From IMG/VR virus record IMGVR_UViG_3300035498_000944: a stretch of DNA of 64,000 nucleotides, one strand, 5' to 3'. The translations under genes and the position numbers were made by a program. Below, piece by piece: positions 6,990-23,602 of the stretch (its first letter is position 1; each line of letters opens with the position of its first letter). The notes beneath the pieces were generated by a model. That model was not told the DNA's origin and ran no database searches. It saw only the letters and a program-made list of their open reading frames with translations. The stretch is from a virus. Its lineage: Duplodnaviria; Heunggongvirae; Uroviricota; Caudoviricetes.

Positions 6990-7244
6990 TTAGACGGCTT
7001 TCTTTTTAGCCATCCACATAGCCTTTGTAGCAGCTGCACCTCTCTTAGCACTATCTGCTTTATTAAGTTTTAGTAATGCATCTACCTCACTATATAAACC
7101 ACTGTTAACCTTAGGCAGATCATGTCTAAAAACATTATGTAGCATACTCTTAGATATACCAGTTTCGGCAGATAATCTTCTAAGAGTATAATCACCACTT
7201 ACAAATAAAAACGCAAGTCTTTCAACATCGTCTTTAACCCTCAT
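6990..7244 (-). CDS. spoIIID: SpoIIID-like HTH transcriptional regulator
   Basis: 84 aa. GISKSMLHNVFRHDLPKVN...EV..LL..NK....RGAAATK follows the SpoIIID signature G.SKS.VH.DL...LP..N...EV.......K....RGG.ATK. Confidence 0.55.
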   Translation of the reverse strand: MRVKDDVERLAFLFVSGDYTLRRLSAETGISKSMLHNVFRHDLPKVNSGLYSEVDALLKLNKADSAKRGAAATKAMWMAKKKAV

Positions 7245-8602: not shown

Positions 8603-8671
8603 AATATTAGTACCTCCTAAATATTAAATTTAAAAATGTTACTTCTGTATGTTTCTAAATTTATCTTATGA

Positions 8672-9616
8672 TTAGAATAAAGGTTTCCTTGCCCTTAGGT
8701 AATACTTAGAGATGGTTGGTCTACACTGAAATCCAAAGGTATTATCTTCACAATAATCTTTGAAATTATCTGGAGTTAATAGATCTTTCAACTTTAAACA
8801 CCATTCGAACATGTAGTTTGTAGTTTTAACATTAGACATATTGAAATTACAGATATCTAGGTATCCCAAATTCTCACAACCATCAAACATGCTCGACATA
8901 CTCTCAACCTTGGAGGTATCAAAGTTATAAAGCTCTAAATATTTTAAAGTACTACAATTCTTAAACATAGAATGCATGTCTGTTACTTTGGACGTATCAA
9001 AATGAAGAATATCTAGCCATTTTAAACTAGGACACTCCCAAAACATACAAGACATATCTTCAACATTAGAGGTGTCAAAACTACTAAGGTTTATAGTTTC
9101 TAGATTCCTACAATTCCAAAACATGCAAGACATATCTTTAACCTTTGAGGTATTAAAGCCAGATAAATCTAACTTATACAAACTATGACATCCAGCAAAC
9201 ATAAGCTTCATCTCCGTTACATTAGAAGTGTTAAAGTTGCTAAGATCTATATATTCCAAATGCATACAGGCATCAAACATACGTGACATACATGTTACAT
9301 TCGCTGTATTAAGATTATTAAGCTCAGCAGTAGTTAACTCAAAACAACTATAAAACATACCTCTCATGTTCTTAACATTGCTAGTATCTAACAAGTCATT
9401 TAAATTGACATGTTTCAAACTAGAACAATCTTTAAATAAATAAGAACAATCATCAGGCAGAATAACTTGATAACCATCCATAAATGCCGGGAGATCTATA
9501 TCTCGTACTTTCTTTTTCTTCACGAGCCTATTTATCTTTACCCAGCCATCACCATAAGTACTACTGAATATATTGTCAAATTGCTCACGAGACATCTTTG
9601 ACAATTTAATCAACAC
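8672..9616 (-). CDS. BspA/DUF285-like LRR repeat protein, paralog 1 (314 aa)
   Basis: Conserved N-terminal module (...GDGWVKINR...LPDDCSYLF) followed by 26-aa MF..C..L..LD.S.F.TS.V..M repeats. Confidence 0.75.
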   Translation of the reverse strand: MLIKLSKMSREQFDNIFSSTYGDGWVKINRLVKKKKVRDIDLPAFMDGYQVILPDDCSYLFKDCSSLKHVNLNDLLDTSNVKNMRGMFYSCFELTTAELNNLNTANVTCMSRMFDACMHLEYIDLSNFNTSNVTEMKLMFAGCHSLYKLDLSGFNTSKVKDMSCMFWNCRNLETINLSSFDTSNVEDMSCMFWECPSLKWLDILHFDTSKVTDMHSMFKNCSTLKYLELYNFDTSKVESMSSMFDGCENLGYLDICNFNMSNVKTTNYMFEWCLKLKDLLTPDNFKDYCEDNTFGFQCRPTISKYYLRARKPLF

Positions 9617-9626
9617 CTTTCTTTAT

Positions 9627-11189
9627 TTAGCGTCCGAACATCTTGTTGTTTTTCCAATCAGCACCTTTTAATTTTGCTGGACAACGTAAAAACATATTCT
9701 CACAATTAAATGGATTAGACAATACTTTTTCCATGTTAAAATTACTTAAGTCTAAATTGGACAAACTGCTACAATCTTGGAACATACCAGCGAAGTTTTC
9801 AACATTCTTTGTGTCAAATCTACTCAAATCAAGTTCTTTCAAATTGTAGCAATGAGCGAACATCCAATGCATATCTTTAACGTTTGTAGTGTAAAAACTA
9901 GATACATTTACACTCTCCAGATTTTCACAAGAGCAGAACATATAGTCCATATGTGTTACATATCCAGTATTGAAATTACTCAAGTCTAATGTTGTTAGAG
10001 ATTCACAGTTTGAAAACATGCCAGACATATTTCTAACCTCAGATGTATTAAACTTCTTAGTATCTATATGGGTTAACTTTTTGCAATCAGAAAACATATT
10101 ACCCATATCACATACTTTAGATGTTCTGAAACTACTTATATCTAATTCAACAAGATTCTTGCAGTTATAGAACATGTCATTCATAAAGTGTACATTTGAT
10201 GTATTAAAGTTAGATAAATCTAACTTGTTCAGTTTTTCGCATCCATGGAACATGCTGTTCATTTCTTCAACGCTTGATGTATCGAAAGAACTTATATTTA
10301 AGTCAGTTAAACTAGAACAATACATAAACATATTATACATAGTCTTTACATGCTGAGTATTGAAACTAGATAAATCCAATGCAGTTAAGTTCTCACATTT
10401 ATAGAACATATTAAACATGTGCTCAACACTTGATGTATTGAAATTAGCTAAATTTATATTAACTAATTTACTACAACCCTCAAACATAGATATCATAGTA
10501 GTTACCTTTGCTGAGTTAAAAGAACTTAAGTCTAAAGATGTCAAATTCTGACAACCGTTAAACATATTACACATATCCTCAACATTAGTAACATCAAAGC
10601 TGCTTAAGTCTATATCAGGTAAACTTTTACATTCTGTAAACATACCTCTCATGTCTGTTACTCTAGAAGTATTAAAACTACTCAAATCTAAAGATTTTAA
10701 ATTCGTGCAATGACTAAACATATATGACATATCTGTTACAGATGATGTATCCATACCTTCCAAGTTTACACTCTCTAAACTATTACAATCAAAGAACATT
10801 CCTGACATGTCTTTAACACTGTCTGTACGCAACTTATGTATATTCAAGTTACATAAACTAGAGCATTTACTAAACATCTTAGACATATCTGTGACATTAA
10901 TAGTTAATTTCATACCTATAGAAACATCTACTAATGAAGTACATCCCTCAAACATACTAGACATATTGGTTATGTTTTTCCAATCCAATACACCTCTAAG
11001 ATTTACAGATTTCAAATTCTTACATCCTGAGAAAAGATAAGAGCAATCATTAGGTAAAAATACTTGAAGGCCATCCATAAATATAGGCATAACTAATTCT
11101 TCAATGGATTTGTCTTTCACCTTAGTTACCTTGACCCAGTCATCACCACATTCGTATTCGAATAAGTCCATAAATTCCTGTACTTCCAA
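9627..11189 (-). CDS. BspA/DUF285-like LRR repeat protein, paralog 2 (520 aa)
   Basis: Same N-terminal module (YECGDDWVKVTKVKDK...LPNDCSYLF) plus about 17 repeats. Confidence 0.75.
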   Translation of the reverse strand: MEVQEFMDLFEYECGDDWVKVTKVKDKSIEELVMPIFMDGLQVFLPNDCSYLFSGCKNLKSVNLRGVLDWKNITNMSSMFEGCTSLVDVSIGMKLTINVTDMSKMFSKCSSLCNLNIHKLRTDSVKDMSGMFFDCNSLESVNLEGMDTSSVTDMSYMFSHCTNLKSLDLSSFNTSRVTDMRGMFTECKSLPDIDLSSFDVTNVEDMCNMFNGCQNLTSLDLSSFNSAKVTTMISMFEGCSKLVNINLANFNTSSVEHMFNMFYKCENLTALDLSSFNTQHVKTMYNMFMYCSSLTDLNISSFDTSSVEEMNSMFHGCEKLNKLDLSNFNTSNVHFMNDMFYNCKNLVELDISSFRTSKVCDMGNMFSDCKKLTHIDTKKFNTSEVRNMSGMFSNCESLTTLDLSNFNTGYVTHMDYMFCSCENLESVNVSSFYTTNVKDMHWMFAHCYNLKELDLSRFDTKNVENFAGMFQDCSSLSNLDLSNFNMEKVLSNPFNCENMFLRCPAKLKGADWKNNKMFGR

Positions 11190-11210
11190 TTTTATACCAA
11201 CACCTTTCTT

Positions 11211-11750
11211 TTACAGTCCATAACCAGAACAAACATTTATATTTACCAAACTATCACATCCATTAAACAGCCTAGAGAAATGTGTACAGATATTCTGTAG
11301 AAAACTTTCATCTATGACTATAGTGGTTAAATTACAATCTCCGCTGAATATTTCATTTCCGTTAAATTTGTTTAGGAATTCGAAATTACTCAAATCTATT
11401 GACATTAGATTTTCACAATCCATGAACATTCCAGATATATCTATGATGTTGGATGCATCAAAATAGCCAAAGTCCACACTTTCTAAATGTATACAAGAGG
11501 CAAACATAAATGACATGTTTGTGACATTTGAGGTATCAATTAAATCACTTAAGTCAAGATTTACTAATCTACGACATCCTGAAAATAAAGAACTACAGTT
11601 ATCAGGTAAGCACACTTGATAACCTTCTATATAGGATGGTATAACTATATCAGTAGCATATCTATCTTTGACTCTTGTTATCTGAACATAATCCTCACTG
11701 TAAGTACATTCGAATAAACTTTCAAATTCCTCATAGGGCATATCGTACAT
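11211..11750 (-). CDS. BspA/DUF285-like LRR repeat protein, paralog 3 (short, 179 aa)
   Basis: N-terminal module plus about 4 repeats. Confidence 0.7.
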   Translation of the reverse strand: MYDMPYEEFESLFECTYSEDYVQITRVKDRYATDIVIPSYIEGYQVCLPDNCSSLFSGCRRLVNLDLSDLIDTSNVTNMSFMFASCIHLESVDFGYFDASNIIDISGMFMDCENLMSIDLSNFEFLNKFNGNEIFSGDCNLTTIVIDESFLQNICTHFSRLFNGCDSLVNINVCSGYGL

Positions 11751-11766
11751 TCATAACAAATCCTTT

Positions 11767-12825
11767 CTAACATAGATGACTTATCATATTTCTGATAGCT
11801 TTAAATTCATATCCACTATCATAATTAGATATAATATCTGTTAAACTTGTACACCCATCAAATAAGCCATCTGAATGTGCTTTACTAGGTATTATAAAAT
11901 TCTTGCCTAAAGTCAGCTTTGATAGACTATAGCAATCCTCAAACATCTCACACATATCTGTAATATTAAGAGTGTTAAAGCTACTAAGGTCTAACTCTGT
12001 TAGACTCTGACACTCTGCAAACATTTCATACATGTATATGACTCTAGATGTGTTAAACTTGTTAACATCAAGTGATGTTAGGTTAGTACAATCTCTGAAC
12101 ATATAAGCCATATCTCCAACCATAGAAGTATCAAAATTTCTTATATCTAGAGAGTTTAGACTACTGCATCCGTAAAACATAGAGAACATATCTACAACTT
12201 TGGATGTATCAAAACTACTTATGTTTAAATCTGTCAGACTAACGCATCTAGCAAACATGGCAACTGCATATACTAAATTAGATGTATTAAAGTTACTTAA
12301 ATCTAGGCTTTGCAAATTACTGCAATCCTTAAACATTCTAGACATACCTGCAACGTTAGTAGTATTAAAGTTGCTTAAGTCAAGTTCTTTAAGACTTTTA
12401 CACTTACAGAACATATCAGACATATCAGTTACCTTAGAGGTGTCAAAGTTGCTAAGATCTAGCTCTTGCAGAAGATAGCAAGAACTAAACATTGATCGCA
12501 TATCTGTAACATTTGATGTATTAATATTACATAATTTTACAACCTCCAGCAACTTACAAGATGAAAACATGTAAGCCATATCTACAACATTGGATGTATC
12601 AACTATATAATTAAAATCAATATAACGTAGGTTATGACAAACCTGTAGCAGATTTGTACAGGCGTTAGGTAGAAATACTTGCAGACCCTCTACATGTGAT
12701 GGAATTGTTAATCCCTGTATTGGAATATCCTTCACTTTAACTATTTGTACACGATCTTTACTACTTTCATACTCAAATAGTCTATCAAACTCTTCAAAAG
12801 ATATTTCTAACATTTTAGACATCAC
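11767..12825 (-). CDS. BspA/DUF285-like LRR repeat protein, paralog 4 (352 aa)
   Basis: N-terminal module plus repeats. Confidence 0.75.
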   Translation of the reverse strand: MMSKMLEISFEEFDRLFEYESSKDRVQIVKVKDIPIQGLTIPSHVEGLQVFLPNACTNLLQVCHNLRYIDFNYIVDTSNVVDMAYMFSSCKLLEVVKLCNINTSNVTDMRSMFSSCYLLQELDLSNFDTSKVTDMSDMFCKCKSLKELDLSNFNTTNVAGMSRMFKDCSNLQSLDLSNFNTSNLVYAVAMFARCVSLTDLNISSFDTSKVVDMFSMFYGCSSLNSLDIRNFDTSMVGDMAYMFRDCTNLTSLDVNKFNTSRVIYMYEMFAECQSLTELDLSSFNTLNITDMCEMFEDCYSLSKLTLGKNFIIPSKAHSDGLFDGCTSLTDIISNYDSGYEFKAIRNMISHLC

Positions 12826-12843
12826 CTTTCTTGTTGATATACT

Positions 12844-13995
12844 TTATTTGCAGGTAATAGTAGCGTTGCATCCTTCAAGTAACTCTGGTATATAAAATTC
12901 TATATTAGACATTGTGGATTTATTTAAACCTAAGTCCGTTAAGCTTACACAAAATTCAAACATGGAATTCATATTTCTTACATTAGAGGTATCAAAGTTA
13001 CTTAAGTCTAAACATGATAAACTCTCACATTCATAAAACATATTTGACATAGTTTCAACATTAGGAGTATTAAAACTACTTATATCTAAATCTGTTAAAT
13101 TTGTACAACCAGCAAACATCTCTGACATATAAATAACATTAGAGGTATCAAAGTTACTTAAATCTAAACATGATAAACTTCTGCAACTATGAAACATATT
13201 AGACATGTCAATAACACTAGAAGTATCAAGGTTCTTAATATTTAAATCGCATAAGCTTGTGCAACCTCCGAAAATGTAATTCATGTCTATAACATTTGAT
13301 GTGTTTAGATTACTTAAGTCCAAATATGTTAAACTACTACAACCTTCAAACATTTGTGCCATATTTGTGACATTAGTAGTATTAAGGCTACTAATGTCTA
13401 TAGCTGTTAATTTAGGACAGCTGAAAAACATACCAGACATATCTGAGGCATTTGATGTGTTAAAATCATTTAAGTTCACAGATTCTAAATTATAACAACA
13501 ACCAAACATATGCCTCAGACTCTTGATATTAGAAGCATTCAACTTACTCAAATCAATAGCCTTTAAACTATGACACCAAAAGAACATATTAGACATGTCA
13601 GTAACATTAGCAGTATTGAAATTGCTTATATCAACTTCTGCTAGATTCATACAGCTTTCAAACAAACTATGCATGTTAATTACGTTAAATGTGTTAAAGC
13701 TGCCAAAGTTTATCCTTGACAACTTATCACATTCACTAAACATTGCATACATGTTCTTCACGTTTGAAGTATCTATAACGTTACTCAAATCTATATGTTC
13801 TAACTCACGGCATCTAGAGAACAGATAGGAGCAGTCATCTGGTAAATACACTTGCAAACCATCTACATAGGAAGGAACTGTCATCTCCTCAATCTCAGAA
13901 TCCTTTAGTTTGATTATTTGCATCCTGTCTTCCAAATAGGCATACTCGAACAAATTCTCAAAATCATGTAATAACATTTTAATCATTTTAATCAA
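12844..13995 (-). CDS. BspA/DUF285-like LRR repeat protein, paralog 5 (383 aa)
   Basis: N-terminal module plus repeats. Confidence 0.75.
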   Translation of the reverse strand: MIKMIKMLLHDFENLFEYAYLEDRMQIIKLKDSEIEEMTVPSYVDGLQVYLPDDCSYLFSRCRELEHIDLSNVIDTSNVKNMYAMFSECDKLSRINFGSFNTFNVINMHSLFESCMNLAEVDISNFNTANVTDMSNMFFWCHSLKAIDLSKLNASNIKSLRHMFGCCYNLESVNLNDFNTSNASDMSGMFFSCPKLTAIDISSLNTTNVTNMAQMFEGCSSLTYLDLSNLNTSNVIDMNYIFGGCTSLCDLNIKNLDTSSVIDMSNMFHSCRSLSCLDLSNFDTSNVIYMSEMFAGCTNLTDLDISSFNTPNVETMSNMFYECESLSCLDLSNFDTSNVRNMNSMFEFCVSLTDLGLNKSTMSNIEFYIPELLEGCNATITCK

Positions 13996-14034
13996 TCACC
14001 TTTCATCAAATAAAAAATTTTCTTGCGTATTTCT

Positions 14035-15477
14035 TTATCCCCAATAAACTCTAGTAGGACAATCCCTAAACATGTTATCAGAGTTCCTCACATTAGAGGT
14101 ATTAAAATTAATCAAATCCAGATATGTTAAACTCTTACAATTTTCAAACATGGATTGTATGTATCTGACATTTGATGTATCAAAGTTCTTTATATTTAAG
14201 TCAGTTAAGCTTCTACATTCAAGAAACATACAACACATATTTATGACTTTAGAAGTATCAAAACTTCCTACATCTAAATCAGCTAGGTTGTAACATTCTG
14301 CAAACATAAAAGACATATCCTCAACATTAGAGGTGTCAAAGTTAGAGAGATCAAGACTCTTTATACTTTTACAAGCAGAAAACATTCCTGCCATGTCTGT
14401 AACATTTTCTGTGTTGAAATTGCTTATATTTAATTTAACTAACTCTGAACAGTTTGCAAACATAACTTTCATGTTCATAACATTGCTTGTATTGAAATTG
14501 CTCAAATCCAAATTCATTATATCACTACAATTATAAAACATACAGGACATATCTCTAACAGCAGAAGTATCAAAACTAGATAAATTTAAATTAGTTAAGC
14601 TAACACATTCCTCAAACATACATTCCATATCTATCACATTAGATGTATTAAAATTACTTAGGTACAGATTATATAAATCTGTACAGTAGTAAAACATATG
14701 AGACATACTTATTACATTAGAGGTATCAAAGTTGCTTATATCTAGAGACTCCAACCTTCTGCAGGTAGAGAACATTGATATCATATTTGTTACATTTGAA
14801 GTATCAAAGTTACTCAAATTTAAAGTTTCTATGGAACTATTCTGAAACATGCTTGACATATCTGTGACACTTGAAGTATCAAAACTACTGAGGTCCAGTT
14901 CTGACTGCCCATAATTGGCAAACATAGAAGTCATATCTCGAACATTTGAAGTATTGAAATTACTCAAATCCAAATGTGTTAAATCTTGACAACCACAGAA
15001 CATACAGTTCATATCTTTGACATTCGAAGTGTCGAAACTGCTTAAGTTTATAGAAGTTAAACTATTACATCCTGCAAACATGCAAGCCATGGTCTCAACT
15101 TTAGATGTGTTAAAACTACTCAAGTTTAATTTTATTAAACTGCTACAGCTTCTGAATACTCCAAACATATTTGTGACGTTCTCTGTATTAAAGTTGCTCA
15201 AATCTATTGTTTGGGCATTGGTACACCCTGAAAACATAGCTGTCATCTTGGTAACATTTGAAGTATCGATAATATGACTTAAATCTATGTCTTGAGCATA
15301 ACGACAGTTTTTAAACAATCGTGTACAATTTTTAGGCAGATATACCTGATGACCTTCAACATACGAAGGTATAACAACACTGCCATACAATTGCTGTATG
15401 GCAGTTATTTTTACCCAGTCATCACCTAAAGTATATCTGAACATTTTGTCAAATTCTTTAAATGACATTTCAAACAT
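14035..15477 (-). CDS. BspA/DUF285-like LRR repeat protein, paralog 6 (480 aa)
   Basis: N-terminal module plus about 16 repeats. Confidence 0.75.
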   Translation of the reverse strand: MFEMSFKEFDKMFRYTLGDDWVKITAIQQLYGSVVIPSYVEGHQVYLPKNCTRLFKNCRYAQDIDLSHIIDTSNVTKMTAMFSGCTNAQTIDLSNFNTENVTNMFGVFRSCSSLIKLNLSSFNTSKVETMACMFAGCNSLTSINLSSFDTSNVKDMNCMFCGCQDLTHLDLSNFNTSNVRDMTSMFANYGQSELDLSSFDTSSVTDMSSMFQNSSIETLNLSNFDTSNVTNMISMFSTCRRLESLDISNFDTSNVISMSHMFYYCTDLYNLYLSNFNTSNVIDMECMFEECVSLTNLNLSSFDTSAVRDMSCMFYNCSDIMNLDLSNFNTSNVMNMKVMFANCSELVKLNISNFNTENVTDMAGMFSACKSIKSLDLSNFDTSNVEDMSFMFAECYNLADLDVGSFDTSKVINMCCMFLECRSLTDLNIKNFDTSNVRYIQSMFENCKSLTYLDLINFNTSNVRNSDNMFRDCPTRVYWG

Positions 15478-15501
15478 TTTGCGTTTTAACCCTTTCGTAA
15501 T

Positions 15502-17130: not shown

Positions 17131-17157
17131 TCACCAAGTACCTGAGATATAATTTTC

Positions 17158-18456
17158 TCAACTAAGGTACTCTATAGCTGGATAGCTTCGAACAAATTCT
17201 CCGTTACCATATACATGTATATTCAGATGCTGGAAATCAGCTATAATCCTCTGGTCGGAAAATTGTGTCCCACGTAATTTTTGGTCCAATTTTATTCTGT
17301 CTTCAAGTTCCTCATTTATATACAAATCGTTTAATGAATTACAGTTATATAACATATTACACATTAGCTGTACATTTGAAATATCAAAATTGCTTATATC
17401 TAGACTGTCAAGACTCTCACATCTATAGAACATACCACTCAGATCATCAACCTTAGAAGTATCAAAGTTGCTGATATCTAAATAGTTTAGTGACTCACAT
17501 CCAGAAAACATACCACCTATGTGTGTGACATTAGAAGTATCAAAGCTACTAACATCCAAAGATGTTAAACTACTACAACCTGAGAACATATAATCCATAC
17601 ACGTAACATTAGAAGTATTGAAGTTACTAACATCTAAAGATGTTAAACTACTACAATCTGCAAACATACGAATCATATCTGTAACATTAGAAGTATTGAA
17701 GTTACTAAGATCTAGAGATGTTAAACTCTCACAACCATAAAACATATCATACATGTTGTTTACATTTGAAGTATCAAAATTTCTTATGTCTAAATATGTT
17801 AAATTCTCACAATAACTAAACATTCCCTGCATATCAATGACACTGGAAGTATTAAGACTACTAACGTCTAAACATGATAAACTCTCACAATTAGCAAACA
17901 TTTCTGACATAGTTTCGACATTAGATGTATTGAAATTACTAATGTTTAAAGATGTTAAACTACTGCAATTGTCAAACATGTAAGACATAGATGTAACATT
18001 TGAAGTATCAAAATTGGAAAGATCTAAACTATATAACTGTGTACAGTCTAAAAACATACCAGCCATGGCTGTAACGCTCGACGTATCGAAACTGCTAAGA
18101 TCCAGGAACTCTAGACGATAACACCTATTAAACATATATGACATCTCAGTTACGTTAGTAGTATTAAAATTACCAAAATTTATAGATTTCAAAAATCTGC
18201 ATACAGCAAACATACCGTTTGTACGTATTACATTAGATGTGTCTATAATATTACTTAAATCAATAGAATTGAAAGATGTTTCACTAAACAATGCTAGGCA
18301 ATCATCAGGAAGATAAACCTGGTATCCCTCTACATAAGATGGTATAACTAACACTCCACCTGTATTCTTATACTTTAATTTAGTTATCTGTATCCAATCA
18401 TCACCACATGTATATTCAAATATTCTACCAAATTTATCAAAAGACATTTCACTCAT
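17158..18456 (-). CDS. BspA/DUF285-like LRR repeat protein, paralog 8 (432 aa) with C-terminal cassette
   Basis: N-terminal module MSEMSFDKFGRIFEYTCGDDWIQITKLK..., repeats, and the shared C-terminal module. Confidence 0.75.
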   Translation of the reverse strand: MSEMSFDKFGRIFEYTCGDDWIQITKLKYKNTGGVLVIPSYVEGYQVYLPDDCLALFSETSFNSIDLSNIIDTSNVIRTNGMFAVCRFLKSINFGNFNTTNVTEMSYMFNRCYRLEFLDLSSFDTSSVTAMAGMFLDCTQLYSLDLSNFDTSNVTSMSYMFDNCSSLTSLNISNFNTSNVETMSEMFANCESLSCLDVSSLNTSSVIDMQGMFSYCENLTYLDIRNFDTSNVNNMYDMFYGCESLTSLDLSNFNTSNVTDMIRMFADCSSLTSLDVSNFNTSNVTCMDYMFSGCSSLTSLDVSSFDTSNVTHIGGMFSGCESLNYLDISNFDTSKVDDLSGMFYRCESLDSLDISNFDISNVQLMCNMLYNCNSLNDLYINEELEDRIKLDQKLRGTQFSDQRIIADFQHLNIHVYGNGEFVRSYPAIEYLS

Positions 18457-18508
18457 TATAAAACAACACCTTTCTCTGAGTGTTAACTTTTCTCTATAAT
18501 TTATCTTA

Positions 18509-19381
18509 TTAATAAATATCTTTTAAGTAACACTCATGTATAAGATCTCCATTTGAATACTTAGCGATAACCATATGATCATCACAGCCATCCAGGAGAT
18601 AATTTACAGGAGTGTAATCATTAAAGTTGATATCTATATTGAGTCTTTCTAAACATATACAGTTATAAAACATCTGACACATGTTTACTACGTTTAAAGT
18701 TTTAAAATTCTGTATATCTAATGATATTAATTCAGAACAATCAGCAAACATACTAGAAATGTAATTAACACTGCATGTGTTAAAGTTACTCAAATTTAAC
18801 CGAGATAACTTCTTACAATTAGCGAACATAGAAGACATATCTTTTACGTTACTTGTATCAAAATTATGGATATCTATATGTTCTAGACTCTCACAATTCT
18901 CAAACATACTATGCATACCTATCACATTATGAGTTTTAAAATTACTTAGATATAAGGATTTTAAACAATCACAATCAGAAAACATTCTAGACATGTCAGT
19001 CACATTTGAAGTATCAAAACTGCTAAGATTTAGAGAATCAATTGCAGTGTATTGGAACATACTAAACATGTCAGTTACATTTGATGTATTAATATCACTT
19101 AGATTTATGGACTCCAAGGATAGACAATAGTAGAACATCTGGGACATGTTATTAACATTTGATGTATTAATACAACTCAGATCTATTGAAGTTAAGTTTT
19201 CACAACAAGCAAATAATTTAGAACAGTCATCAGGAAGATATACTTGATAACTTCCAATGTATGATGGTATTACAATATCTCCATATACAAATCTATCGTT
19301 TACAGATGTTATTTGTATCCATCTATCTCCATATATGTAATTAAAGATTTTATCAAATTCATCAAAAGTCAGTTTATACAT
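18509..19381 (-). CDS. BspA/DUF285-like LRR repeat protein, paralog 9 (290 aa)
   Basis: N-terminal module plus repeats. Confidence 0.75.
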   Translation of the reverse strand: MYKLTFDEFDKIFNYIYGDRWIQITSVNDRFVYGDIVIPSYIGSYQVYLPDDCSKLFACCENLTSIDLSCINTSNVNNMSQMFYYCLSLESINLSDINTSNVTDMFSMFQYTAIDSLNLSSFDTSNVTDMSRMFSDCDCLKSLYLSNFKTHNVIGMHSMFENCESLEHIDIHNFDTSNVKDMSSMFANCKKLSRLNLSNFNTCSVNYISSMFADCSELISLDIQNFKTLNVVNMCQMFYNCICLERLNIDINFNDYTPVNYLLDGCDDHMVIAKYSNGDLIHECYLKDIY

Positions 19382-19401
19382 CTTCCTAACAACTCCTTCA
19401 T

Positions 19402-19518
19402 TTATTCTTCACAATCCAAGTGAACCATGTATCCCATCTTCGTAAGCCTATATCTATCAGAGTCATATATATGCTGTCCACATATATGACAATAACATAT
19501 AAACTTCTGTTTAGGCAT
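19402..19518 (-). CDS. small zinc-ribbon-like protein of 38 aa (MPKQKFICYCHICGQHIYDSDRYRLTKMGYMVHLDCEE). Not in the supplied ORF track.
   Basis: ORF in the 210-nt gap between LRR paralogs 9 and 10. The C.C..CG...Y...........H..C pattern is paralogous to the ORF at 23437..23574. A weak RBS (AAAGGAG) lies further upstream. Confidence 0.35.
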   Translation of the reverse strand: MPKQKFICYCHICGQHIYDSDRYRLTKMGYMVHLDCEE

Positions 19519-19591
19519 ATAACCATATAGTATCTTCATTTTGTCTCATGTTTTCTCCTTTACTCATTTTAATGACTCTACTAAGCTAATA

Positions 19592-20458
19592 CTATAGCTC
19601 CGCAAACATATACCGCTCTATATAGTGCATAATTGTGTTTGTAAGGTTAAAACAACCAGCAAACATTTTAAACGTATCAGTAATATTGGAAATATCGAAA
19701 TTGCGAGGATCTAAGTATCTAAGATTATGACATCCATAAAACATATATGACATGTCAGTGACTCTGGAAGTGTTGAAATTACTAACACCTAAATATTCTA
19801 TGTTTTCACAACCCGCAAACATGCTGGCCATACACGCAACATTGTGAGTATTGAAATTGCTGAGATCCAAAGATTCTAAACTCTCACAATAGCTAAACAT
19901 GGAAGACATGCTCATAACATTGGAAGTGTCGAAGTTACTAACATCCAAATACCTTAACTTCTTACAATTGTTGAACATAGCACCCATATCTGTAACATTT
20001 GATGTGTCAAAATTGCTAACGTCAATACTTATCAAACTTGAACAGGTATCAAACATTCCTGTCATATCAATGACATTAGAAGTATCGAAACTTCTGATGT
20101 CCAGGGATTCTAAACAAAGACAGCGGCCAAACATATAACGCATATCTGTTACATTTGTAGTATTGAAGTTATTAAGATTCAAGGATTTAAGATTATCACA
20201 TCCATAAAACATATAGAACATGTTAGTAATATTTGATGTGCCTATAACATTACTTAAATCTAGAGATTCCAAGCTTCTACACTCATAGAATAATTTTTCA
20301 CAGTTATCAGGAAGATATACCTGATAACCCTCTACATAAGATGGTACTATCAAACTGCCTGGCATACTCTTATCCTTTAATTCAGTAATTTGTATCCAAT
20401 CATCACCATATGTGTATTCAAATATCTTATTAAATTCATCAAAAGACATTTTAAACAT
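19592..20458 (-). CDS. BspA/DUF285-like LRR repeat protein, paralog 10 (288 aa)
   Basis: N-terminal module plus repeats. Confidence 0.75.
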   Translation of the reverse strand: MFKMSFDEFNKIFEYTYGDDWIQITELKDKSMPGSLIVPSYVEGYQVYLPDNCEKLFYECRSLESLDLSNVIGTSNITNMFYMFYGCDNLKSLNLNNFNTTNVTDMRYMFGRCLCLESLDIRSFDTSNVIDMTGMFDTCSSLISIDVSNFDTSNVTDMGAMFNNCKKLRYLDVSNFDTSNVMSMSSMFSYCESLESLDLSNFNTHNVACMASMFAGCENIEYLGVSNFNTSRVTDMSYMFYGCHNLRYLDPRNFDISNITDTFKMFAGCFNLTNTIMHYIERYMFAEL

Positions 20459-20478
20459 TTAAAACAACTCCTTTTCAA

Positions 20479-21885
20479 TTACCAAATACCTGAGACACAA
20501 GTTTCCCAATTAAAGTAATCTATAGCTGGATAGCTTCGAACAAGTTCTCCATCATCATATACATGTATAGTTAAATTCTGGAAATTATCTATAATCCTCT
20601 CATTAGAAAATTGTGTTCCACGTAATTTTTGATCACATTTTAATCTATCTTCAAGTTCTTCATTTATATACAAATTGTTTAATGAACTACAGTTATACAA
20701 CATATTACACATTAAATTTATATTTGAAATATCGAAGTTGCTTATGTTTAAACTGTCAAGACTCTCACATCCAAAAAACATATCTGTCATATTAGTGACT
20801 TTAGAAGTATCAAAACTATTCAAATCCAAGTATTTCAATTTACAGCAATTACAAAACATTCCTGCCATATCTGTAACATTTTCCGTATTGAAATTGCTTA
20901 TATCTAAAGAGTTTAGATTACTACATCCGGAGAACATAGCAACTGCATATATTAAATTAGATGTGTTAAAATTATTTATGTTTAAACATGCTAAACTCTT
21001 ACATTTAGCAAACATAGCAATTGCATACACTAAACTAGACGTATCGAAGTTACTTAAGTCTAGGCTTTGCAAATTACTGCAATCCTCAAACATTCTAGAC
21101 ATATCTGTTACACTAGAGGTATTGAAATTACTTAAATCTAAATATGTTAAACTACTACAACCTTCGAACATACTTGACATGCTTGTAATATTTGAAGTGT
21201 TGAAGTTACTTAAGTCTAAATAGACTAAACTACTACAACCGTCAAACATTTCAGACATATTTGTAACATTAGTGGTATCAAAATCATTAATGTCTATAGC
21301 TGATAATCTCTCACAATGATAAAACATGCTAGTCATCTCTATAACATTAGAGGTATTGAAATTACTAATGTTTAAAGATGACAAGCTTGCACAATTATAA
21401 AACATATAAGATGTATCTGTAACCCTAGAAGTATTGAAATCGGAAAGGTCTAGATTAGATAACTTGTTACATTCCTTAAACATACCTGCCATATCTGTAA
21501 CATTTGATGTGTCAAAACTACTGAGATCCAAAAATTCTAGACAAGGACACTCACTAAACATGTATGCCACAGCTGTTACATTAGTAGTATTAAAACTGCC
21601 TAAGTTTATAGAGATTAGTCTATAACATTCATAAAACATAGCGGTTGTATCAATTACATTAGATGTATCTATGATATCACTTAAATCTAGGGATTCCAAT
21701 CTGTCACACCAAGCAAATAATCTAGAACAGTCATCTGGAAGATATACTTGATAGCCCGCAACATAAGTTGGTACTATCAAACTACCTGACATATCTGTAT
21801 CCTTTACTTTAGTTATCTGAATCCAATCATCACCATATGTATATTCAAATATTTTACCAAAATCATCGAAAGACATTTCACTCAT
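20479..21885 (-). CDS. BspA/DUF285-like LRR repeat protein, paralog 11 (468 aa) with C-terminal cassette
   Basis: N-terminal module, repeats, and the shared C-terminal module. The 3' 100 nt are identical to paralog 7. Confidence 0.75.
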   Translation of the reverse strand: MSEMSFDDFGKIFEYTYGDDWIQITKVKDTDMSGSLIVPTYVAGYQVYLPDDCSRLFAWCDRLESLDLSDIIDTSNVIDTTAMFYECYRLISINLGSFNTTNVTAVAYMFSECPCLEFLDLSSFDTSNVTDMAGMFKECNKLSNLDLSDFNTSRVTDTSYMFYNCASLSSLNISNFNTSNVIEMTSMFYHCERLSAIDINDFDTTNVTNMSEMFDGCSSLVYLDLSNFNTSNITSMSSMFEGCSSLTYLDLSNFNTSSVTDMSRMFEDCSNLQSLDLSNFDTSSLVYAIAMFAKCKSLACLNINNFNTSNLIYAVAMFSGCSNLNSLDISNFNTENVTDMAGMFCNCCKLKYLDLNSFDTSKVTNMTDMFFGCESLDSLNISNFDISNINLMCNMLYNCSSLNNLYINEELEDRLKCDQKLRGTQFSNERIIDNFQNLTIHVYDDGELVRSYPAIDYFNWETCVSGIW

Positions 21886-21905
21886 TCTAAAACAACTCCT
21901 TTCTT

Positions 21906-22550
21906 TTAGGGTAGATTCATATCTTGTTCAAATTGAGTTTGTAATGTATCATTACCATATAAGTCTTTTAAACTACTACAGTCTCTAAACATATTCTCCA
22001 TAGTATCAACCTTAGAAGTGTCAAAACTACTTAAATCTAGTTTTCTTAGATGTTTACATTTAACAAACATATGCGACATTTCATTGACGCTAGAAGTATT
22101 AAAACTACTTAGGTTCAAAGATTTTAAACTCATGCAATCCGCAAACATACCAGACATATCAGTAACATTATGAGTATCAAAATTGCTGACATCTAAGGAT
22201 GTTAAACTATCACACCACCTAAACATACCAGACATATCAGTAACATTAGAAGTATTGAGATTGCTAACATCTAAGAATGTTAAATTATGACAACCTCCAA
22301 ACATCTCACACATGTTAGTAACATTTGAAGTGTCTATAACATCACTTAAATATAGAGATTTCAATCCTTCACAGTTAAAAAACAGATCAGAACAATCGTC
22401 AGGTAAATAAACTTGATAGCCCTCAACATGAGAAGGTACCATAAGTGTACCTTGCATATCTTTATTTTTCACCTTAGTGATCTGAACCCAATCATCACCA
22501 TATGTATAGTCAAATATTCTATTGAATATTTCAAAAGACATTTCATTCAT
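21906..22550 (-). CDS. BspA/DUF285-like LRR repeat protein, paralog 12 (214 aa)
   Basis: N-terminal module plus about 6 repeats. Confidence 0.75.
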   Translation of the reverse strand: MNEMSFEIFNRIFDYTYGDDWVQITKVKNKDMQGTLMVPSHVEGYQVYLPDDCSDLFFNCEGLKSLYLSDVIDTSNVTNMCEMFGGCHNLTFLDVSNLNTSNVTDMSGMFRWCDSLTSLDVSNFDTHNVTDMSGMFADCMSLKSLNLSSFNTSSVNEMSHMFVKCKHLRKLDLSSFDTSKVDTMENMFRDCSSLKDLYGNDTLQTQFEQDMNLP

Positions 22551-22580
22551 TCTGTATCAACTCCATTATGTATATAATTA

Positions 22581-23411
22581 TTATTTCCAATAAACTTCTG
22601 CAGGACAGCCGTCGAACGTAGACATGGCTGATATTCTTTTATGTCTAACAAAGTTGCTAAAATTAATTTGTTTCAGACTCTCACAATAGGCAAACATTTC
22701 AGATATGTCTGTAACACTTGATGAGTCGAAACTACTTAAATTCAAATAGGTTAACTTTTCACAATAACCGAACATTCCAATCATGTTTGTGACATTAGAG
22801 GTGTTAAAGTAATTTACATATAAACACTCTAACTCGTGACAACGATAAAACATGTAATACATATTTTGTACATTTGATGTTATGAAATTATCAAGATTTA
22901 AACTCTTTAATCTTTTACACCACATGAACATGTAACTCATATCTGTAACATTAGAAGTATCGAAGTTGGATAAATCAAGATATGTAAGATTACTACAACC
23001 GTAAAACATCTCTGACATATCAACAACATTAGATGTATTTAAGCTGACTAAATCTAAATCTGCTAGAGAGGTACAATGAGAAAACATAGCATGCATATTA
23101 CTAACATTAGAAGTATCGAAGTTGCTAATGTTTAATACCTCTAAACTACAACAGTTAAAGAACATTCTAGATGCGTTAGTGACATTAGATGTATCTACAA
23201 TATTATGTAAATCGATTTCCTTTAACTGTGTACCTTCAGCAAATAGATCTGTGCAATCATCTGGTAAATAGACCTGATAATCATCTACATATGAAGGAAC
23301 AACTAGTCTAGTTAGTTTACCATCATTCTTAAATTCAGTTATCTGAATCCAATTATCTGCACATGTGTATTCAAATAACCTTCCAAATTCATCGAAAGTC
23401 ATATTGTTCAT
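22581..23411 (-). CDS. BspA/DUF285-like LRR repeat protein, paralog 13 (276 aa)
   Basis: N-terminal module plus repeats. Confidence 0.75.
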   Translation of the reverse strand: MNNMTFDEFGRLFEYTCADNWIQITEFKNDGKLTRLVVPSYVDDYQVYLPDDCTDLFAEGTQLKEIDLHNIVDTSNVTNASRMFFNCCSLEVLNISNFDTSNVSNMHAMFSHCTSLADLDLVSLNTSNVVDMSEMFYGCSNLTYLDLSNFDTSNVTDMSYMFMWCKRLKSLNLDNFITSNVQNMYYMFYRCHELECLYVNYFNTSNVTNMIGMFGYCEKLTYLNLSSFDSSSVTDISEMFAYCESLKQINFSNFVRHKRISAMSTFDGCPAEVYWK

Positions 23412-23436
23412 TTTGTATCAAATCCTTTCTTTTTTA

Positions 23437-23574
23437 TTATTTACTAGTACATTCTTTGTGACGTATAAAACCCCCATCACTGTATGTATAAACTTCATAA
23501 CCATATACAGGCTCACCACAAATATCACAGTAACCCTTTATAATAGGTTTAGGTGTTGCAATAAAAACTGACAT
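23437..23574 (-). CDS. small zinc-ribbon-like protein of 45 aa (MSVFIATPKPIIKGYCDICGEPVYGYEVYTYSDGGFIRHKECTSK). Not in the supplied ORF track.
   Basis: Strong RBS GAGGAGG lies 9 nt upstream of the ATG. The CxxC...HxxC pattern is paralogous to the ORF at 19402..19518. Confidence 0.55.
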   Translation of the reverse strand: MSVFIATPKPIIKGYCDICGEPVYGYEVYTYSDGGFIRHKECTSK

Positions 23575-23602
23575 GATTAAGTACCTCCTCTTTAGCTAAT
23601 AA

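What the first reader, a model, noticed from the sequence alone, without database searches (positions are those of the whole stretch)
8672..23411. Thirteen tandem paralogous BspA/DUF285-like LRR genes with a shared N-terminal module and shuffled C-terminal cassettes
About 14.7 kb of the window is one multigene family. Each gene opens with a roughly 60-aa conserved module (M.(E)MSF.EF..IFEYTYGDDWIQIT..KDK...VIPSYVEGYQVYLPDDCS.LF) followed by 3 to 19 copies of a 26-aa repeat (LDLSNFNTSNVTDMSxMFxxCxSL). Three paralogs (15502-17130, 17158-18456, 20479-21885) also share a C-terminal module (KLR.T.FSD.RIIDNFQNLTIHVYDDGELVRSYPAIDYFNWET). A 100-nt stretch is identical between 15511-15610 and 20500-20599, which implies recent gene conversion. 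None has a signal peptide or TM segment. In a phage-like genome this looks like a diversifying family of target-binding proteins (virion-delivered or cytoplasmic effectors that each recognise a different host factor). This is inference, not demonstrated. I do not know of a described phage system of this kind.
Basis: partly seen in the sequence, partly recalled or inferred. Interest (0 to 1): 0.8.

Follow-up and report, generated by a model that had tools for sequence, protein, structure and literature searches.

The report
Thirteen tandem LRR genes, probable jumbo phage
A probable giant bacteriophage carries thirteen back-to-back, diverged copies of a known leucine-rich-repeat "surface protein" gene (PARCEL/DUF285) that have no export signal; the expansion resembles one known in a giant algal virus, and what the proteins bind is unknown.

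Summary
Window 8672-23411 (- strand) holds 13 co-oriented genes, each with a ribosome-binding site. Each encodes an N-terminal cap, 2-16 units of a 26-residue repeat (128 units, none elsewhere in the window) and a variable C-terminus.

The repeat is the known PARCEL/DUF285 repeat (PF03382 E to 1e-140; TIGR02167 E to 1e-124). AlphaFold gives a confident LRR solenoid (pLDDT 91.5) closest to BspA-type LRR crystal structures.

The "shared N-terminal module" is not a new domain. It is a lineage-specific version of the canonical BspA N-terminal cap.

The shared C-module marks one subfamily (g7, g8, g11) and carries a 101-nt identical gene-conversion tract.

A related 202-kb element (FtsK-like protein 77% identical) has its own array of at least 10 genes, with no one-to-one orthologues and one pseudogene. 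That indicates birth-and-death turnover. Positive selection is not demonstrable because dS is saturated.

PARCEL genes occur in 130 phage records, and a 38-gene DUF285 family is described in Aureococcus virus. I found no description of a tandem array of short, signal-less copies in a phage.

Function is untested. My best guess is cytoplasmic binders of host factors. Virion-displayed adhesins is the close rival.

The parts
22581..23411 (-). g13, PARCEL/DUF285 LRR gene: 276 aa, 7 repeat units, 'CPAEVYWK' C-cap. First gene of the array.
21906..22550 (-). g12, PARCEL LRR gene: 214 aa, 5 units.
   Evidence: Identical in four other metagenome contigs.
20479..21885 (-). g11, PARCEL LRR gene: 468 aa, 13 units, C-module.
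   Evidence: AF2 model pLDDT 91.5.
19592..20458 (-). g10, PARCEL LRR gene: 288 aa, 8 units.
18509..19381 (-). g9, PARCEL LRR gene: 290 aa, 7 units.
17158..18456 (-). g8, PARCEL LRR gene: 432 aa, 12 units, C-module.
15502..17109 (-). g7, PARCEL LRR gene: 535 aa from the RBS-served ATG, 14 units, C-module. Its N-cap has a 24-aa insertion.
14035..15477 (-). g6, PARCEL LRR gene: 480 aa, 16 units, 'CPTRVYWG' C-cap.
12844..13986 (-). g5, PARCEL LRR gene: 380 aa, 11 units.
11767..12813 (-). g4, PARCEL LRR gene: 348 aa, 9 units.
11211..11750 (-). g3, short degenerate member: 179 aa, 2 clear units.
9627..11189 (-). g2, PARCEL LRR gene: 520 aa, TTG start, 16 units, 'CPAKLKG' C-cap.
8672..9595 (-). g1, PARCEL LRR gene: 307 aa, 8 units. 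Last gene of the array.
15510..15610 (-). 101-nt tract in the g7 C-module, identical to 20499-20599 in g11. It is a gene-conversion tract and a crossover or assembly-ambiguity point.
20499..20599 (-). Partner copy of the 101-nt identical tract, in the g11 C-module.
23437..23574 (-). 45-aa Cys-rich (CxxC...HxxC) ORF with a strong RBS, immediately upstream of g13. Whether it belongs to the system is uncertain.
19402..19518 (-). 38-aa paralogous Cys-rich ORF in the only long intergenic gap of the array. Whether it belongs to the system is uncertain.

Best explanation
The region is a lineage-specific, tandemly expanded family of PARCEL/DUF285-type leucine-rich-repeat proteins in a probable jumbo phage of a Bacillota host.

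Each gene encodes one capped LRR solenoid: a BspA-type N-cap, 2-16 units of 26 residues, and a C-cap. Ten positions per unit (L1, L3, F6, T8, V11, M14, M17, F18, C21, L24) form the conserved core. Nine positions (12, 13, 15, 16, 19, 20, 22, 25, 26) are hypervariable, so every unit and every paralogue presents a different surface. All of this is shown.

The array changes by unequal crossing-over between paralogues, because duplication units span gene boundaries. It also changes by local gene conversion (the 101-nt tract) and by decay (a pseudogene in the relative), so related phages carry non-orthologous sets. This is shown by comparison.

The following steps are inferred. The proteins have no signal peptide or TM segment, so they are made and stay in the cytoplasm of the infected cell. 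I think they most likely act there as a repertoire of binding modules, each sequestering or blocking a different, variable host protein (host takeover or counter-defence). This would parallel the repeat-protein multigene families of giant viruses. The tight spacing (10-52 nt) suggests co-transcription as one or two operons.

The confidence value of 0.4 refers to the functional commitment. The structural and evolutionary parts alone I would rate at about 0.9.
For: Family and fold:
- DUF285 E 1e-11 to 1e-140.
- TIGR02167 'PARCEL repeat' E to 1e-124.
- AF2 pLDDT 91.5, pTM 0.88.
- Best PDB matches are the BspA-type LRRs 4fs7 and 4h09, plus TpLRR.

Scaffold and variable positions:
- Conserved versus hypervariable pattern established from 106 full-length units, all unique.

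No export signals:
- Hydrophobicity test negative for all 13.

Turnover:
- The related 202-kb element has FtsK-like protein at 77% and NADAR at 59% identity.
- Its 10 or more PARCEL genes are only 36-51% identical to any window paralogue.
- Window paralogues are 38-62% identical to each other.
- The relative has a fragmented copy.

Duplication mechanism:
- Homology spans gene junctions: g8 end/g7 start matches g11 end/g10 start, and g7/g6 matches g11/g10.
- The 101-nt identity tract is confirmed.
- One metagenome contig crosses from g7 to g10 exactly through that tract.

Accessory or counter-defence neighbourhood:
- NADAR and microbial PARG lie 4-7 kb away.
- GNAT and HipA-like genes are nearby.

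Viral LRRs used as intracellular recognition modules:
- BFVD structural matches include Aureococcus virus and Megaviridae PARCEL-LRRs fused to an E3 ligase and to a protein kinase.
Against: - No experiment or expression data exist.
- In bacteria this family is overwhelmingly extracellular (lipoproteins, surface proteins; PMC2996958).
- Two DUF285 proteins are in Aureococcus virus particles (PMC7507832).
- LRR domains are attached to virion fibre proteins in phage Goslar (bioRxiv 10.64898/2026.04.21.720040). A virion or adhesin role is therefore nearly as likely.
- No LRR anti-defence protein of a phage is known to me.
- PADLOC gives no hit for the LRR proteins.
- Positive selection could not be shown.
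- The same strain seen in six samples is 99.96-100% identical in the array, so no short-term diversification is visible.
- Phage identity of the element rests on indirect markers. No capsid, terminase or tail gene lies in the window.
Confidence: 0.4

Rival explanations
1. Virion-displayed adhesins or accessory receptor-binding proteins. The proteins are made in the cytoplasm (so no signal peptide is needed) and assembled onto the capsid, tail or fibres. There, the variable LRR surfaces bind different host-cell or environmental (mucus, polysaccharide) ligands. The conserved N-terminal cap or C-module would serve as the common docking element.
For: - Bacterial PARCEL/BspA proteins are surface adhesins (PMC2996958; NCBIfam name 'PARCEL repeat-containing surface protein').
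- Aureococcus virus packages two DUF285 proteins (PMC7507832).
- Goslar carries a paralogous family with a common N-terminal module and variable C-terminal carbohydrate-binding or LRR domains, proposed as a host-recognition 'fibre cloud'.
- Giant PARCEL ORFs exist in jumbo phages pir03 (19 kb) and PAU gp103 (1857 aa).
- Butyrivibrio phages Arian and Bo-Finn carry two adjacent PARCEL genes in the late region, upstream of the endolysin.
Against: - The N-terminal module is the ordinary LRR cap, not a recognisable virion-anchoring domain.
- The array sits among accessory or host-interaction genes, not next to any structural gene in 64 kb.
- The proteins are short (179-535 aa) single-domain solenoids.
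- PHROG families with this repeat are all 'unknown function'.
Confidence: 0.3
2. Sequence reservoir or largely neutral repeat expansion. Most copies have no individual function. The array persists because PARCEL coding repeats duplicate easily, and it serves at most as donor material for recombination into one or a few expressed copies. This is the 'reservoir' idea of Roske et al. 2010.
For: - PMC2996958 proposes that untargeted PARCEL ORFs act as reservoirs.
- Gene conversion is seen.
- There is a degenerate member g3, a frameshifted g11 variant in one sample and a pseudogene in the relative.
- Omega is about 0.8 at variable positions, compatible with neutrality.
Against: - All 13 ORFs are intact despite dS of 0.5 to above 2 between paralogues.
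- Scaffold positions are under strong purifying selection (omega about 0.05).
- Every gene keeps its own Shine-Dalgarno site and start codon.
- 14.7 kb of dead weight is unlikely to persist in a packaged genome.
Confidence: 0.1
3. Membrane-proximal scaffolds working with the flanking membrane-maintenance genes (flotillin, SPFH-zinc-ribbon, TPM, PspA). For example, they might recruit host envelope proteins to phage-organised membrane microdomains.
For: The array is inserted between a flotillin gene (7271-8602) and an SPFH/Band_7_1-zinc-ribbon gene (23603-24592). The latter is followed by TPM and PspA genes.
Against: - In the related 202-kb element the array is preceded by SpoIIID, NADAR and small ORFs, with no SPFH, flotillin, TPM or PspA gene in the 10 kb upstream.
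- The proteins have no amphipathic or TM membrane anchor.
- No co-occurrence is known.
Confidence: 0.07
4. The element is not a phage but a very large plasmid-like or conjugative element, and the LRR proteins act for that element. They might be delivered to recipient cells or exposed by a non-classical route.
For: - No capsid, terminase or tail gene is in the window.
- A 1303-aa FtsK/SpoIIIE ATPase, M23 peptidase, glucosaminidase and a weak DpnD-PcfM hit in the relative resemble Gram-positive conjugation modules.
- The lineage is absent from IMG/VR and INPHARED.
- PARCEL ORFs are associated with ICEs and plasmids in PMC2996958.
Against: - A separate ORF for the C-terminal part of RNAP beta' points to a split multisubunit RNAP, typical of jumbo phages (own knowledge: phiKZ, AR9).
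- Two tRNAs, PolA, NAD ligase and RNase H are present.
- No relaxase or VirB4 was found in the ORFs scanned.
Confidence: 0.08

Closest known systems
PARCEL / DUF285 (PF03382, TIGR02167) repeat proteins of Mollicutes, Listeria, lactic acid bacteria and others (Roske et al. 2010, PMC2996958; e.g. LppQ)
   Same: Same 25-26-residue repeat (HMM E to 1e-140). Same pattern of conserved hydrophobic and hypervariable polar positions, with every unit unique. Multicopy in some genomes and associated with mobile elements. An 'untargeted' class without signal peptide is described.
   Different: The bacterial proteins are mostly lipoproteins or membrane-anchored surface proteins dispersed in the genome. Here there are 13 contiguous signal-less genes on a probable phage, all with a BspA-type N-cap. 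The coding-sequence dyad symmetry reported for PARCELs was not detectable by my test.
DUF285 multigene family of Aureococcus anophagefferens virus / Kratosvirus quantuckense (PMC7507832, PMC10720644, PMC5917014)
   Same: A virus-encoded, massively duplicated DUF285 LRR family (38 genes, about 13% of coding regions) clustered in repetitive genome regions. A 'genomic accordion' origin is proposed and the function is unknown. Structural matches were found to my model.
   Different: It is a eukaryotic giant virus. Some members are fused to an E3 ligase domain. Two are virion-packaged. The host alga also carries about 90 DUF285 loci. Here the host is bacterial, the proteins are LRR-only, and no host copies are known: there was no hit to the N-cap variant in 185,579 species genomes.
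BspA-like LRR proteins (PF13306 LRR_5; structures 4fs7, 4h09; TpLRR 6mlx)
   Same: LRR solenoid fold. The N-terminal 'F.Y...I T.Y.G....vvIPs.v.G..V' cap unit is homologous.
   Different: The repeat is the 26-residue DUF285 type rather than the roughly 23-residue LRR_5 type. LRR_5 is above threshold in only 2 of 10 proteins. There is no signal peptide, dockerin, Big or cell-wall anchor.
Goslar/Chimalliviridae DUF7941 paralogue family (bioRxiv 10.64898/2026.04.21.720040)
   Same: A jumbo-phage paralogous family with a common N-terminal module and variable C-terminal binding domains, including LRR or beta-helix.
   Different: The genes are scattered, and virion location is shown by mass spectrometry.
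Single PARCEL/BspA genes of cultured phages (Vibrio pir03 ORF200, Sphingomonas PAU gp103, Butyrivibrio Arian/Bo-Finn, Lak megaphages, Synechococcus S-SKS1)
   Same: Same repeat family in phage genomes (130 records). Arian has two adjacent PARCEL genes that share a C-terminal module.
   Different: These are one to three genes, often giant (up to 19 kb) multi-domain ORFs. They are not a 13-gene array of short capped solenoids.

Membership tests
PARCEL / DUF285 (PF03382; TIGR02167) | Tandem 25-26-residue repeat matching the family HMMs above curated cut-offs | tested here: met
   PF03382 scores 42-461 bits against a cut-off of 25 in 10 of 10 proteins scanned. TIGR02167 scores 49-404 bits against a cut-off of 30 in 5 of 5, including g11-g13.
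PARCEL / DUF285 (PF03382; TIGR02167) | Periodic conserved hydrophobic core positions with hypervariable polar positions; units nearly all unique | tested here: met
   Entropy is below 1.1 bits at positions 1, 6, 8, 11, 14, 17, 18, 21 and 24, and above 2.7 bits at positions 12, 13, 15, 16, 19, 20, 22, 25 and 26. All 106 full-length units are unique.
PARCEL / DUF285 (PF03382; TIGR02167) | Dyad symmetry (palindromy) of the repeat-coding DNA | tested here: inconclusive
   No reverse-strand self-match at E of 1e-3 or better in 8001-24000. Long antisense ORFs are no longer than in synonymous-codon shuffles. The MEME palindrome method of the original paper was not reproduced.
PARCEL / DUF285 (PF03382; TIGR02167) | Membrane targeting (lipoprotein signal, SP or TM). 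This is common but not universal in the family. | tested here: not met
   No hydrophobic N-terminal core or TM-like segment in any of the 13. They correspond to the 'untargeted' category H of PMC2996958.
BspA-like LRR (PF13306 LRR_5) | LRR_5 HMM above gathering threshold | tested here: inconclusive
   Above the cut-off only in g1 (43 bits) and g2 (115 bits) of the ten scanned. It is absent from the others, where DUF285 dominates.
BspA-like LRR (PF13306 LRR_5) | Right-handed LRR solenoid fold like the solved BspA-type proteins | tested here: met
   AF2 pLDDT 91.5. Foldseek top hit 4fs7 (E 4e-8, TM 0.49/0.58). 4h09 and 6mlx also match.
BspA-like LRR (PF13306 LRR_5) | N-terminal 'F.Y...It.Y.G....vvIPs.i.G..V' cap unit preceding the LRR block | tested here: met
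   The N-module profile matches this unit 3-8 times per protein in large BspA-type proteins, with E 1e-14 to 1e-4. An example is P0126.
Virus-encoded DUF285 multigene family (Aureococcus virus type) | Many paralogous DUF285 genes clustered in a viral genome and arisen by duplication | tested here: met
   13 contiguous paralogues with junction-spanning duplications. A second array is in a related element. Viral nature of the element is probable, not proven.
Virus-encoded DUF285 multigene family (Aureococcus virus type) | Some members packaged in virions; low constitutive expression | not testable with these tools
   This needs virion proteomics and an infection transcriptome.
Diversity-generating retroelement or cassette-switching hypervariation system | Reverse transcriptase plus near-identical template and variable repeat pair, or an invertase with silent cassettes | tested here: not met
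   No RT or recombinase domain in any ORF scanned by Pfam or PHROGs. The only near-identical tract lies in the conserved C-module, not in the variable LRR positions.

The most novel reading that the evidence does not exclude
The array is a germline-encoded recognition repertoire of a jumbo phage. Each cytoplasmic LRR paralogue would bind and neutralise a different host immune protein, or a different allele of a variable host factor. The phage would then carry an LRR-based 'counter-immunity library' that expands and contracts by unequal crossing-over as hosts change. This would be a bacterial-virus analogue of LRR-based recognition in eukaryotic immunity and of giant-virus repeat-protein families.
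Probability: 0.15. Interest if true: 0.8.

Novelty: new variant of a known kind. Interest (0 to 1): 0.45.

Why it matters
Large phages carry many accessory genes of unknown role. A 14.7-kb block made of one repeat-protein family is unusual for a phage and mirrors the paralogue expansions of eukaryotic giant viruses.

If the proteins bind host factors, the array would be a ready-made panel of natural binders pointing to the host proteins that matter during infection. It would also give a tractable case of 'genomic accordion' evolution in a bacterial virus.

If they are virion adhesins, the array would instead be a host-range or niche-adhesion determinant.

In either case the proteins themselves belong to a known family (PARCEL/DUF285), so the novelty lies in the arrangement and context, not in the fold.

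Tried and rejected
1. Nucleotide similarity to known phages gave nothing (megablast of 8000-24000 and 36000-60000).

2. Searches for relatives largely failed.
- IMG/VR searches with the flanking SPFH and flotillin proteins and with the FtsK-like protein found nothing useful.
- JGI metagenome contigs gave one false positive, a ParM-like gene.
- GTDB species genomes gave no hit.
- The search for homologous proteins with the FtsK-like protein returned nothing at E of 1e-50 or better, although a 77% identical homologue exists. I treat this as a limit of the word index.

3. A full-length homologue search with g11 was swamped by long repeat-rich proteins and said nothing about close relatives.

4. 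The C-module profile found only fragments of this same element. The C-module has no detectable relatives elsewhere.

5. Antisense ORFs and PARCEL 'palindromy'. There was no inverted self-similarity. Antisense ORF lengths are explained by composition. I reject these ORFs as genes.

6. Promoter and terminator scans were uninformative. Fewer sigma-70-like sites were found than in shuffles.

7. dN/dS. dS is saturated, and site classes were chosen by variability, so the test cannot show positive selection.

8. DGR or cassette inversion is rejected. No reverse transcriptase, invertase or template/variable repeat pair was found.

9. Defence-system membership. PADLOC gave no hit for the LRR proteins or the membrane-stress neighbours.

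10. Sample and run accessions were not found in the paper library, so the environment is unknown.

11. Two exact look-ups aimed at extending beyond the window end found nothing.

Full report
**Observation**

The window is AT-rich (30-37% G+C), and essentially all long ORFs lie on the - strand. Between 8672 and 23411 there are 13 consecutive - strand ORFs.
- Each is preceded by a GAAAGG/AAGGAG ribosome-binding site at a constant distance from the start codon. This moves four starts inward to 9595, 12813, 13986 and 17109.
- Intergenic gaps are 10-52 nt, except a 210-nt gap at 19382-19591.
- All 13 proteins share an N-terminal stretch of about 58 residues. F9, F13, P39, Q46, V47, L49, P50, C53 and L56 are invariant (numbered on g11).
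- A repeat HMM built from the family finds 128 units of 26 residues, all between 8786 and 23210 on the - strand and none elsewhere in the 64 kb. Copies per gene run from 2 (g3) to 16 (g2, g6), not 3-19.
- The identical tract is 101 nt (15510-15610 equals 20499-20599), against a paralogue background of 67-74% nucleotide identity.
- None of the proteins has a hydrophobic signal-peptide core or a TM-like segment, and all are acidic.

**What the proteins are**

The repeat is the PARCEL/DUF285 repeat.
- PF03382 matches with E values from 7e-11 (g3) to 1.6e-140 (g2).
- NCBIfam TIGR02167, 'PARCEL repeat-containing surface protein', matches with E to 2.5e-124.
- The family was defined by Roske et al. 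2010 (PMC2996958). They describe a 25-residue, tandemly arrayed, sequence-variable repeat that is sporadically distributed, often on mobile elements and mostly in membrane-targeted proteins. They also describe an 'untargeted' class of unknown meaning.

AlphaFold2 of g11, using the 13 paralogues as alignment, gives pLDDT 91.5 and pTM 0.88.
- The model has one short beta strand per repeat, an N-terminal helix plus beta-hairpin, and a C-terminal helix-hairpin-helix.
- Foldseek places it nearest the BspA-type LRR structures 4fs7 and 4h09, and TpLRR 6mlx.
- Among viral models it is nearest to PARCEL/BspA proteins of Aureococcus virus, Megaviridae, Aeromonas and Klebsiella jumbo phages, and probably the Butyrivibrio phage protein.

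Across 106 full-length units the scaffold positions are nearly invariant (Cys21 is invariant). Positions 12, 13, 15, 16, 19, 20, 22, 25 and 26 carry 2.7-3.6 bits of entropy, and no two units are identical.

**The N-terminal module**

A profile of the first 60 residues was run against 1.84 billion representative proteins and found only 39 matches at E of 1e-3 or better.
- Two are the window's own g12 and g3.
- Five are other short, signal-less PARCEL proteins.
- The rest are very large BspA-type proteins in which positions 11-47 of the module match 3-8 times each. P0126 shows that this is the familiar 'FEYEVYDDTVTITDYNGRESEVIIPSTIDGYTVTEIG..AF' unit that opens each LRR_5 block.

The module is therefore the BspA N-terminal cap in a lineage-specific form (QVYLPDDC in place of V..IG..AF). 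It is not a separate targeting or effector domain. g7 carries a 24-residue insertion in it that repeats 'DDDWIE'.

**The C-termini**

g7, g8 and g11 share the C-module and are also each other's nearest paralogues overall (53-62% identity). The module therefore marks a subfamily.
- Its profile finds nothing outside this element in 5.8 billion sequences.
- g2, g6 and g13 end in '..C-P-x-x-(V/L)-(Y/K)-W/G'.
- Similar 'NCP...' endings close the genes of related arrays, so this is probably the ancestral cap.

I see no need for cassette shuffling. The data fit descent, truncation and one clear gene-conversion event.

**How the array evolves**

Self-comparison shows homology that runs across gene boundaries.
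- g8 end plus g7 start matches g11 end plus g10 start (17020-18091 versus 20369-21439).
- g6 start plus g7 end matches g10 start plus g11 end (14845-16521 versus 19817-21522).

Duplication units were therefore multi-gene segments, as expected from unequal crossing-over.

Besides the 101-nt tract there are exact matches of 35-44 nt between g7 and g5, g8 and g10. These are longer than about 70% identity would give by chance.

Synonymous divergence between the closest pairs is 0.5 to above 2. Gene-wide dN/dS is about 0.2-0.3. It is 0.05 at scaffold positions and about 0.8 at the positions I had pre-selected as variable. The duplicates are old and their frameworks are under purifying selection. 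Positive selection can be neither shown nor excluded.

**Comparison with other genomes**

The same element occurs at 99.96-100% identity in contigs from six samples: SRR11792607, SRR11792166, and JGI 3300035495, 3300035497, 3300035499 and 3300043077. Within the array I found only two differences.
- A 1-nt deletion at window 20993 frameshifts g11 in one contig.
- Contig L050 runs from g8 and g7 into g10 exactly through the 101-nt tract. This is either the junction expected from an unequal-crossover duplication of g10-g7 or an assembly chimera.

These contigs are one strain and say little about long-term variation.

A real relative exists. It is a 202,269-bp contig from SRR26717865, whose FtsK/SpoIIIE-like protein is 77% identical over all 1303 residues and whose NADAR protein is 59% identical.
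- Downstream of SpoIIID and NADAR genes it carries its own PARCEL array. That array has a fragmented copy, then genes of 210, 549, 313, 303, 329 and at least 290 aa running into the contig end.
- A second contig from the same run adds genes of 152, 326 and 518 aa.
- Their N-caps are extended ('FD..GYS....CEAF.F....I..INK.F.GDIHIPSYI.G.QVYLPDDCS.LF').
- Every window paralogue is closer to another window paralogue (38-62%) than to any gene of the relative (36-51%).
- Two further short contigs carry tandem genes of the same type.

The family is thus conserved as a family in this lineage, but its members turn over. Either the arrays expanded independently or they are homogenised within genomes.

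**What the element is**

No capsid, portal, terminase or tail gene was found in the window by PHROGs or Pfam. There is no similarity to INPHARED phages at the DNA level.

Several features point to a jumbo phage.
- Two tRNA genes are present.
- A family A DNA polymerase, an NAD-dependent ligase and RNase H are present.
- ORF 63152-63910 is a free-standing C-terminal piece of RNA polymerase beta' (E 2e-10 to Thermus beta' residues 1238-1477). Split multisubunit RNA polymerases are typical of phiKZ-like and AR9-like jumbo phages (my own knowledge).
- The relative's contig is at least 202 kb.

A SpoIIID-like regulator and a copper-amine-oxidase-N domain protein suggest a Bacillota (Clostridia-like) host. 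A plasmid-like or conjugative nature is not excluded, given the FtsK-like ATPase, the M23 peptidase and the glucosaminidase.

The neighbourhood of the array is accessory.
- On the low-coordinate side lie flotillin, SpoIIID, isochorismatase, a HipA-like protein and GNAT.
- On the high-coordinate side lie SPFH-zinc ribbon, TPM, PspA, NADAR and a microbial-type PARG. The NADAR also matches PADLOC PDC-M42C.

**What is already known**

PARCEL/DUF285 proteins are not new to viruses.
- tblastn finds them in 130 phage records, including Butyrivibrio phages Arian and Bo-Finn, Sphingomonas phage PAU, Lak megaphages, Synechococcus phages and Aeromonas jumbo phages.
- In Arian, two adjacent PARCEL genes share a C-terminal module.
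- Vibrio jumbo phage pir03 has an annotated 19-kb PARCEL ORF (PMC7765460).
- PHROGs holds five families with the repeat, all of unknown function.
- The closest precedent for a viral multigene family is Aureococcus anophagefferens virus. It has 38 DUF285 proteins (about 13% of coding regions) in repetitive regions, with low steady expression. Two are in virions, and a 'genomic accordion' origin is suggested (PMC7507832, PMC5917014, PMC10720644).
- In phage Goslar, a paralogous family with a common N-terminal module and variable C-terminal binding domains, including LRR, is proposed as host-recognition fibres.

In the library searched I found no description of a tandem array of many short, signal-less PARCEL genes in a bacteriophage.

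**Interpretation**

The following is established. This is a known repeat family and a known fold. It is expanded into 13 intact, individually translatable, old and diverged paralogues. It evolves by unequal crossing-over, gene conversion and decay, and it is lineage-specific in content.

Function is inferred. My preferred reading (confidence about 0.4) is cytoplasmic binding of variable host proteins, that is, host takeover or counter-defence. The reasons are:
- the lack of export signals;
- the accessory, ADP-ribose-hydrolase-containing neighbourhood;
- the turnover between relatives;
- the use of the same LRR type as a recognition module fused to E3-ligase and kinase domains in giant viruses.

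Virion-displayed adhesins or receptor-binding accessories (about 0.3) is the main rival. It is favoured by what the family does in bacteria and by the virion data from Aureococcus virus and Goslar. Reservoir or neutral expansion, a membrane-scaffold role with the flanking SPFH/PspA genes, and a non-phage element are lesser alternatives.

**Verdict**

The finding is genuine and well delimited.

It is a new variant of a known kind: a viral PARCEL/DUF285 multigene family, here in a probable jumbo phage of bacteria. Interest is moderate at 0.45. It would rise sharply if the paralogues were shown to bind distinct host defence proteins.

Noticed in passing
window 23437-23574 (-) and 19402-19518 (-): Two small paralogous Cys-rich ORFs of 45 and 38 aa, with pattern C-x2-C-G-x2-[IV]-Y-x13-16-H-x2-C, which looks zinc-ribbon-like. 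One sits just upstream of the first array gene and has a strong RBS. The other sits in the only long gap inside the array. Neither has a PHROG hit, and neither is found next to the related arrays.
   Followed up: partly
window 63152-63910 (-): A free-standing ORF encodes only the C-terminal 250 residues or so of RNA polymerase beta' (E 2e-10 to Thermus beta' residues 1238-1477). This suggests a split multisubunit RNAP, as in phiKZ/AR9-type jumbo phages.
   Followed up: partly
window 27150-27626 (-) and 29821-30570 (-): A NADAR gene (Pfam E 7e-50; PADLOC PDC-M42C E 1e-71) and a microbial-type PARG gene lie a few kb from the array. Both remove ADP-ribose, so they may counter ADP-ribosylating host defences.
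   Followed up: no
window 7271-8602, 23603-24592, 24613-25335, 26450-27130 (all -): A set of membrane-stress or membrane-organisation genes (flotillin, SPFH/Band_7_1 with C-terminal zinc ribbon, TPM domain, PspA/IM30) brackets the array. No SPFH, flotillin, TPM or PspA gene lies in the 10 kb upstream of the array in the related 202-kb element.
   Followed up: partly
L050 (JGI 3300035499 contig) versus window 18545-15510 and 20499-19536: The contig switches from g7 to the g11 tail and g10 exactly within the 101-nt identical tract. It is either an unequal-crossover duplication variant of g10-g7 or an assembly chimera.
   Followed up: partly
window 20993 (L043, JGI 3300035497): A single-base deletion (TTT to TT) frameshifts g11 to a 297-aa product in one metagenome contig. 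The contig is otherwise identical over 2.6 kb.
   Followed up: partly
L048 9363-9569 and 9659-9985: In the related 202-kb element the first array member is split into a 68-aa N-cap fragment and a 108-aa repeat fragment, so it is a pseudogene.
   Followed up: partly
window 15740-16321 (+), 20675-21223 (+), 12200-12478 (+) and others: Long antisense ORFs overlap the LRR genes. Synonymous-codon shuffles give equally long ones in 30 of 300 trials, so they are by-products of composition and not genes.
   Followed up: yes
window 44088-44400: Tandem 12-27-nt repeats lie inside ORF 44076-44489 (-). From the repeat consensus they look as if they encode a Gly/Pro-rich, collagen-like tract, but I did not translate the ORF. 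It has no family hit.
   Followed up: no
window 6990-7244 (-) and 5117-6082 (-): A SpoIIID-like regulator and a copper-amine-oxidase-N-domain protein point to a spore-forming Bacillota (Clostridia-like) host. A SpoIIID gene is also present in the related element.
   Followed up: no
window 36591-40502 (-): A 1303-aa FtsK/SpoIIIE-family ATPase is 77% identical, without gaps, to its counterpart in the related element. It has no close relative in the phage or plasmid collections (26% identity or less over the ATPase core).
   Followed up: partly
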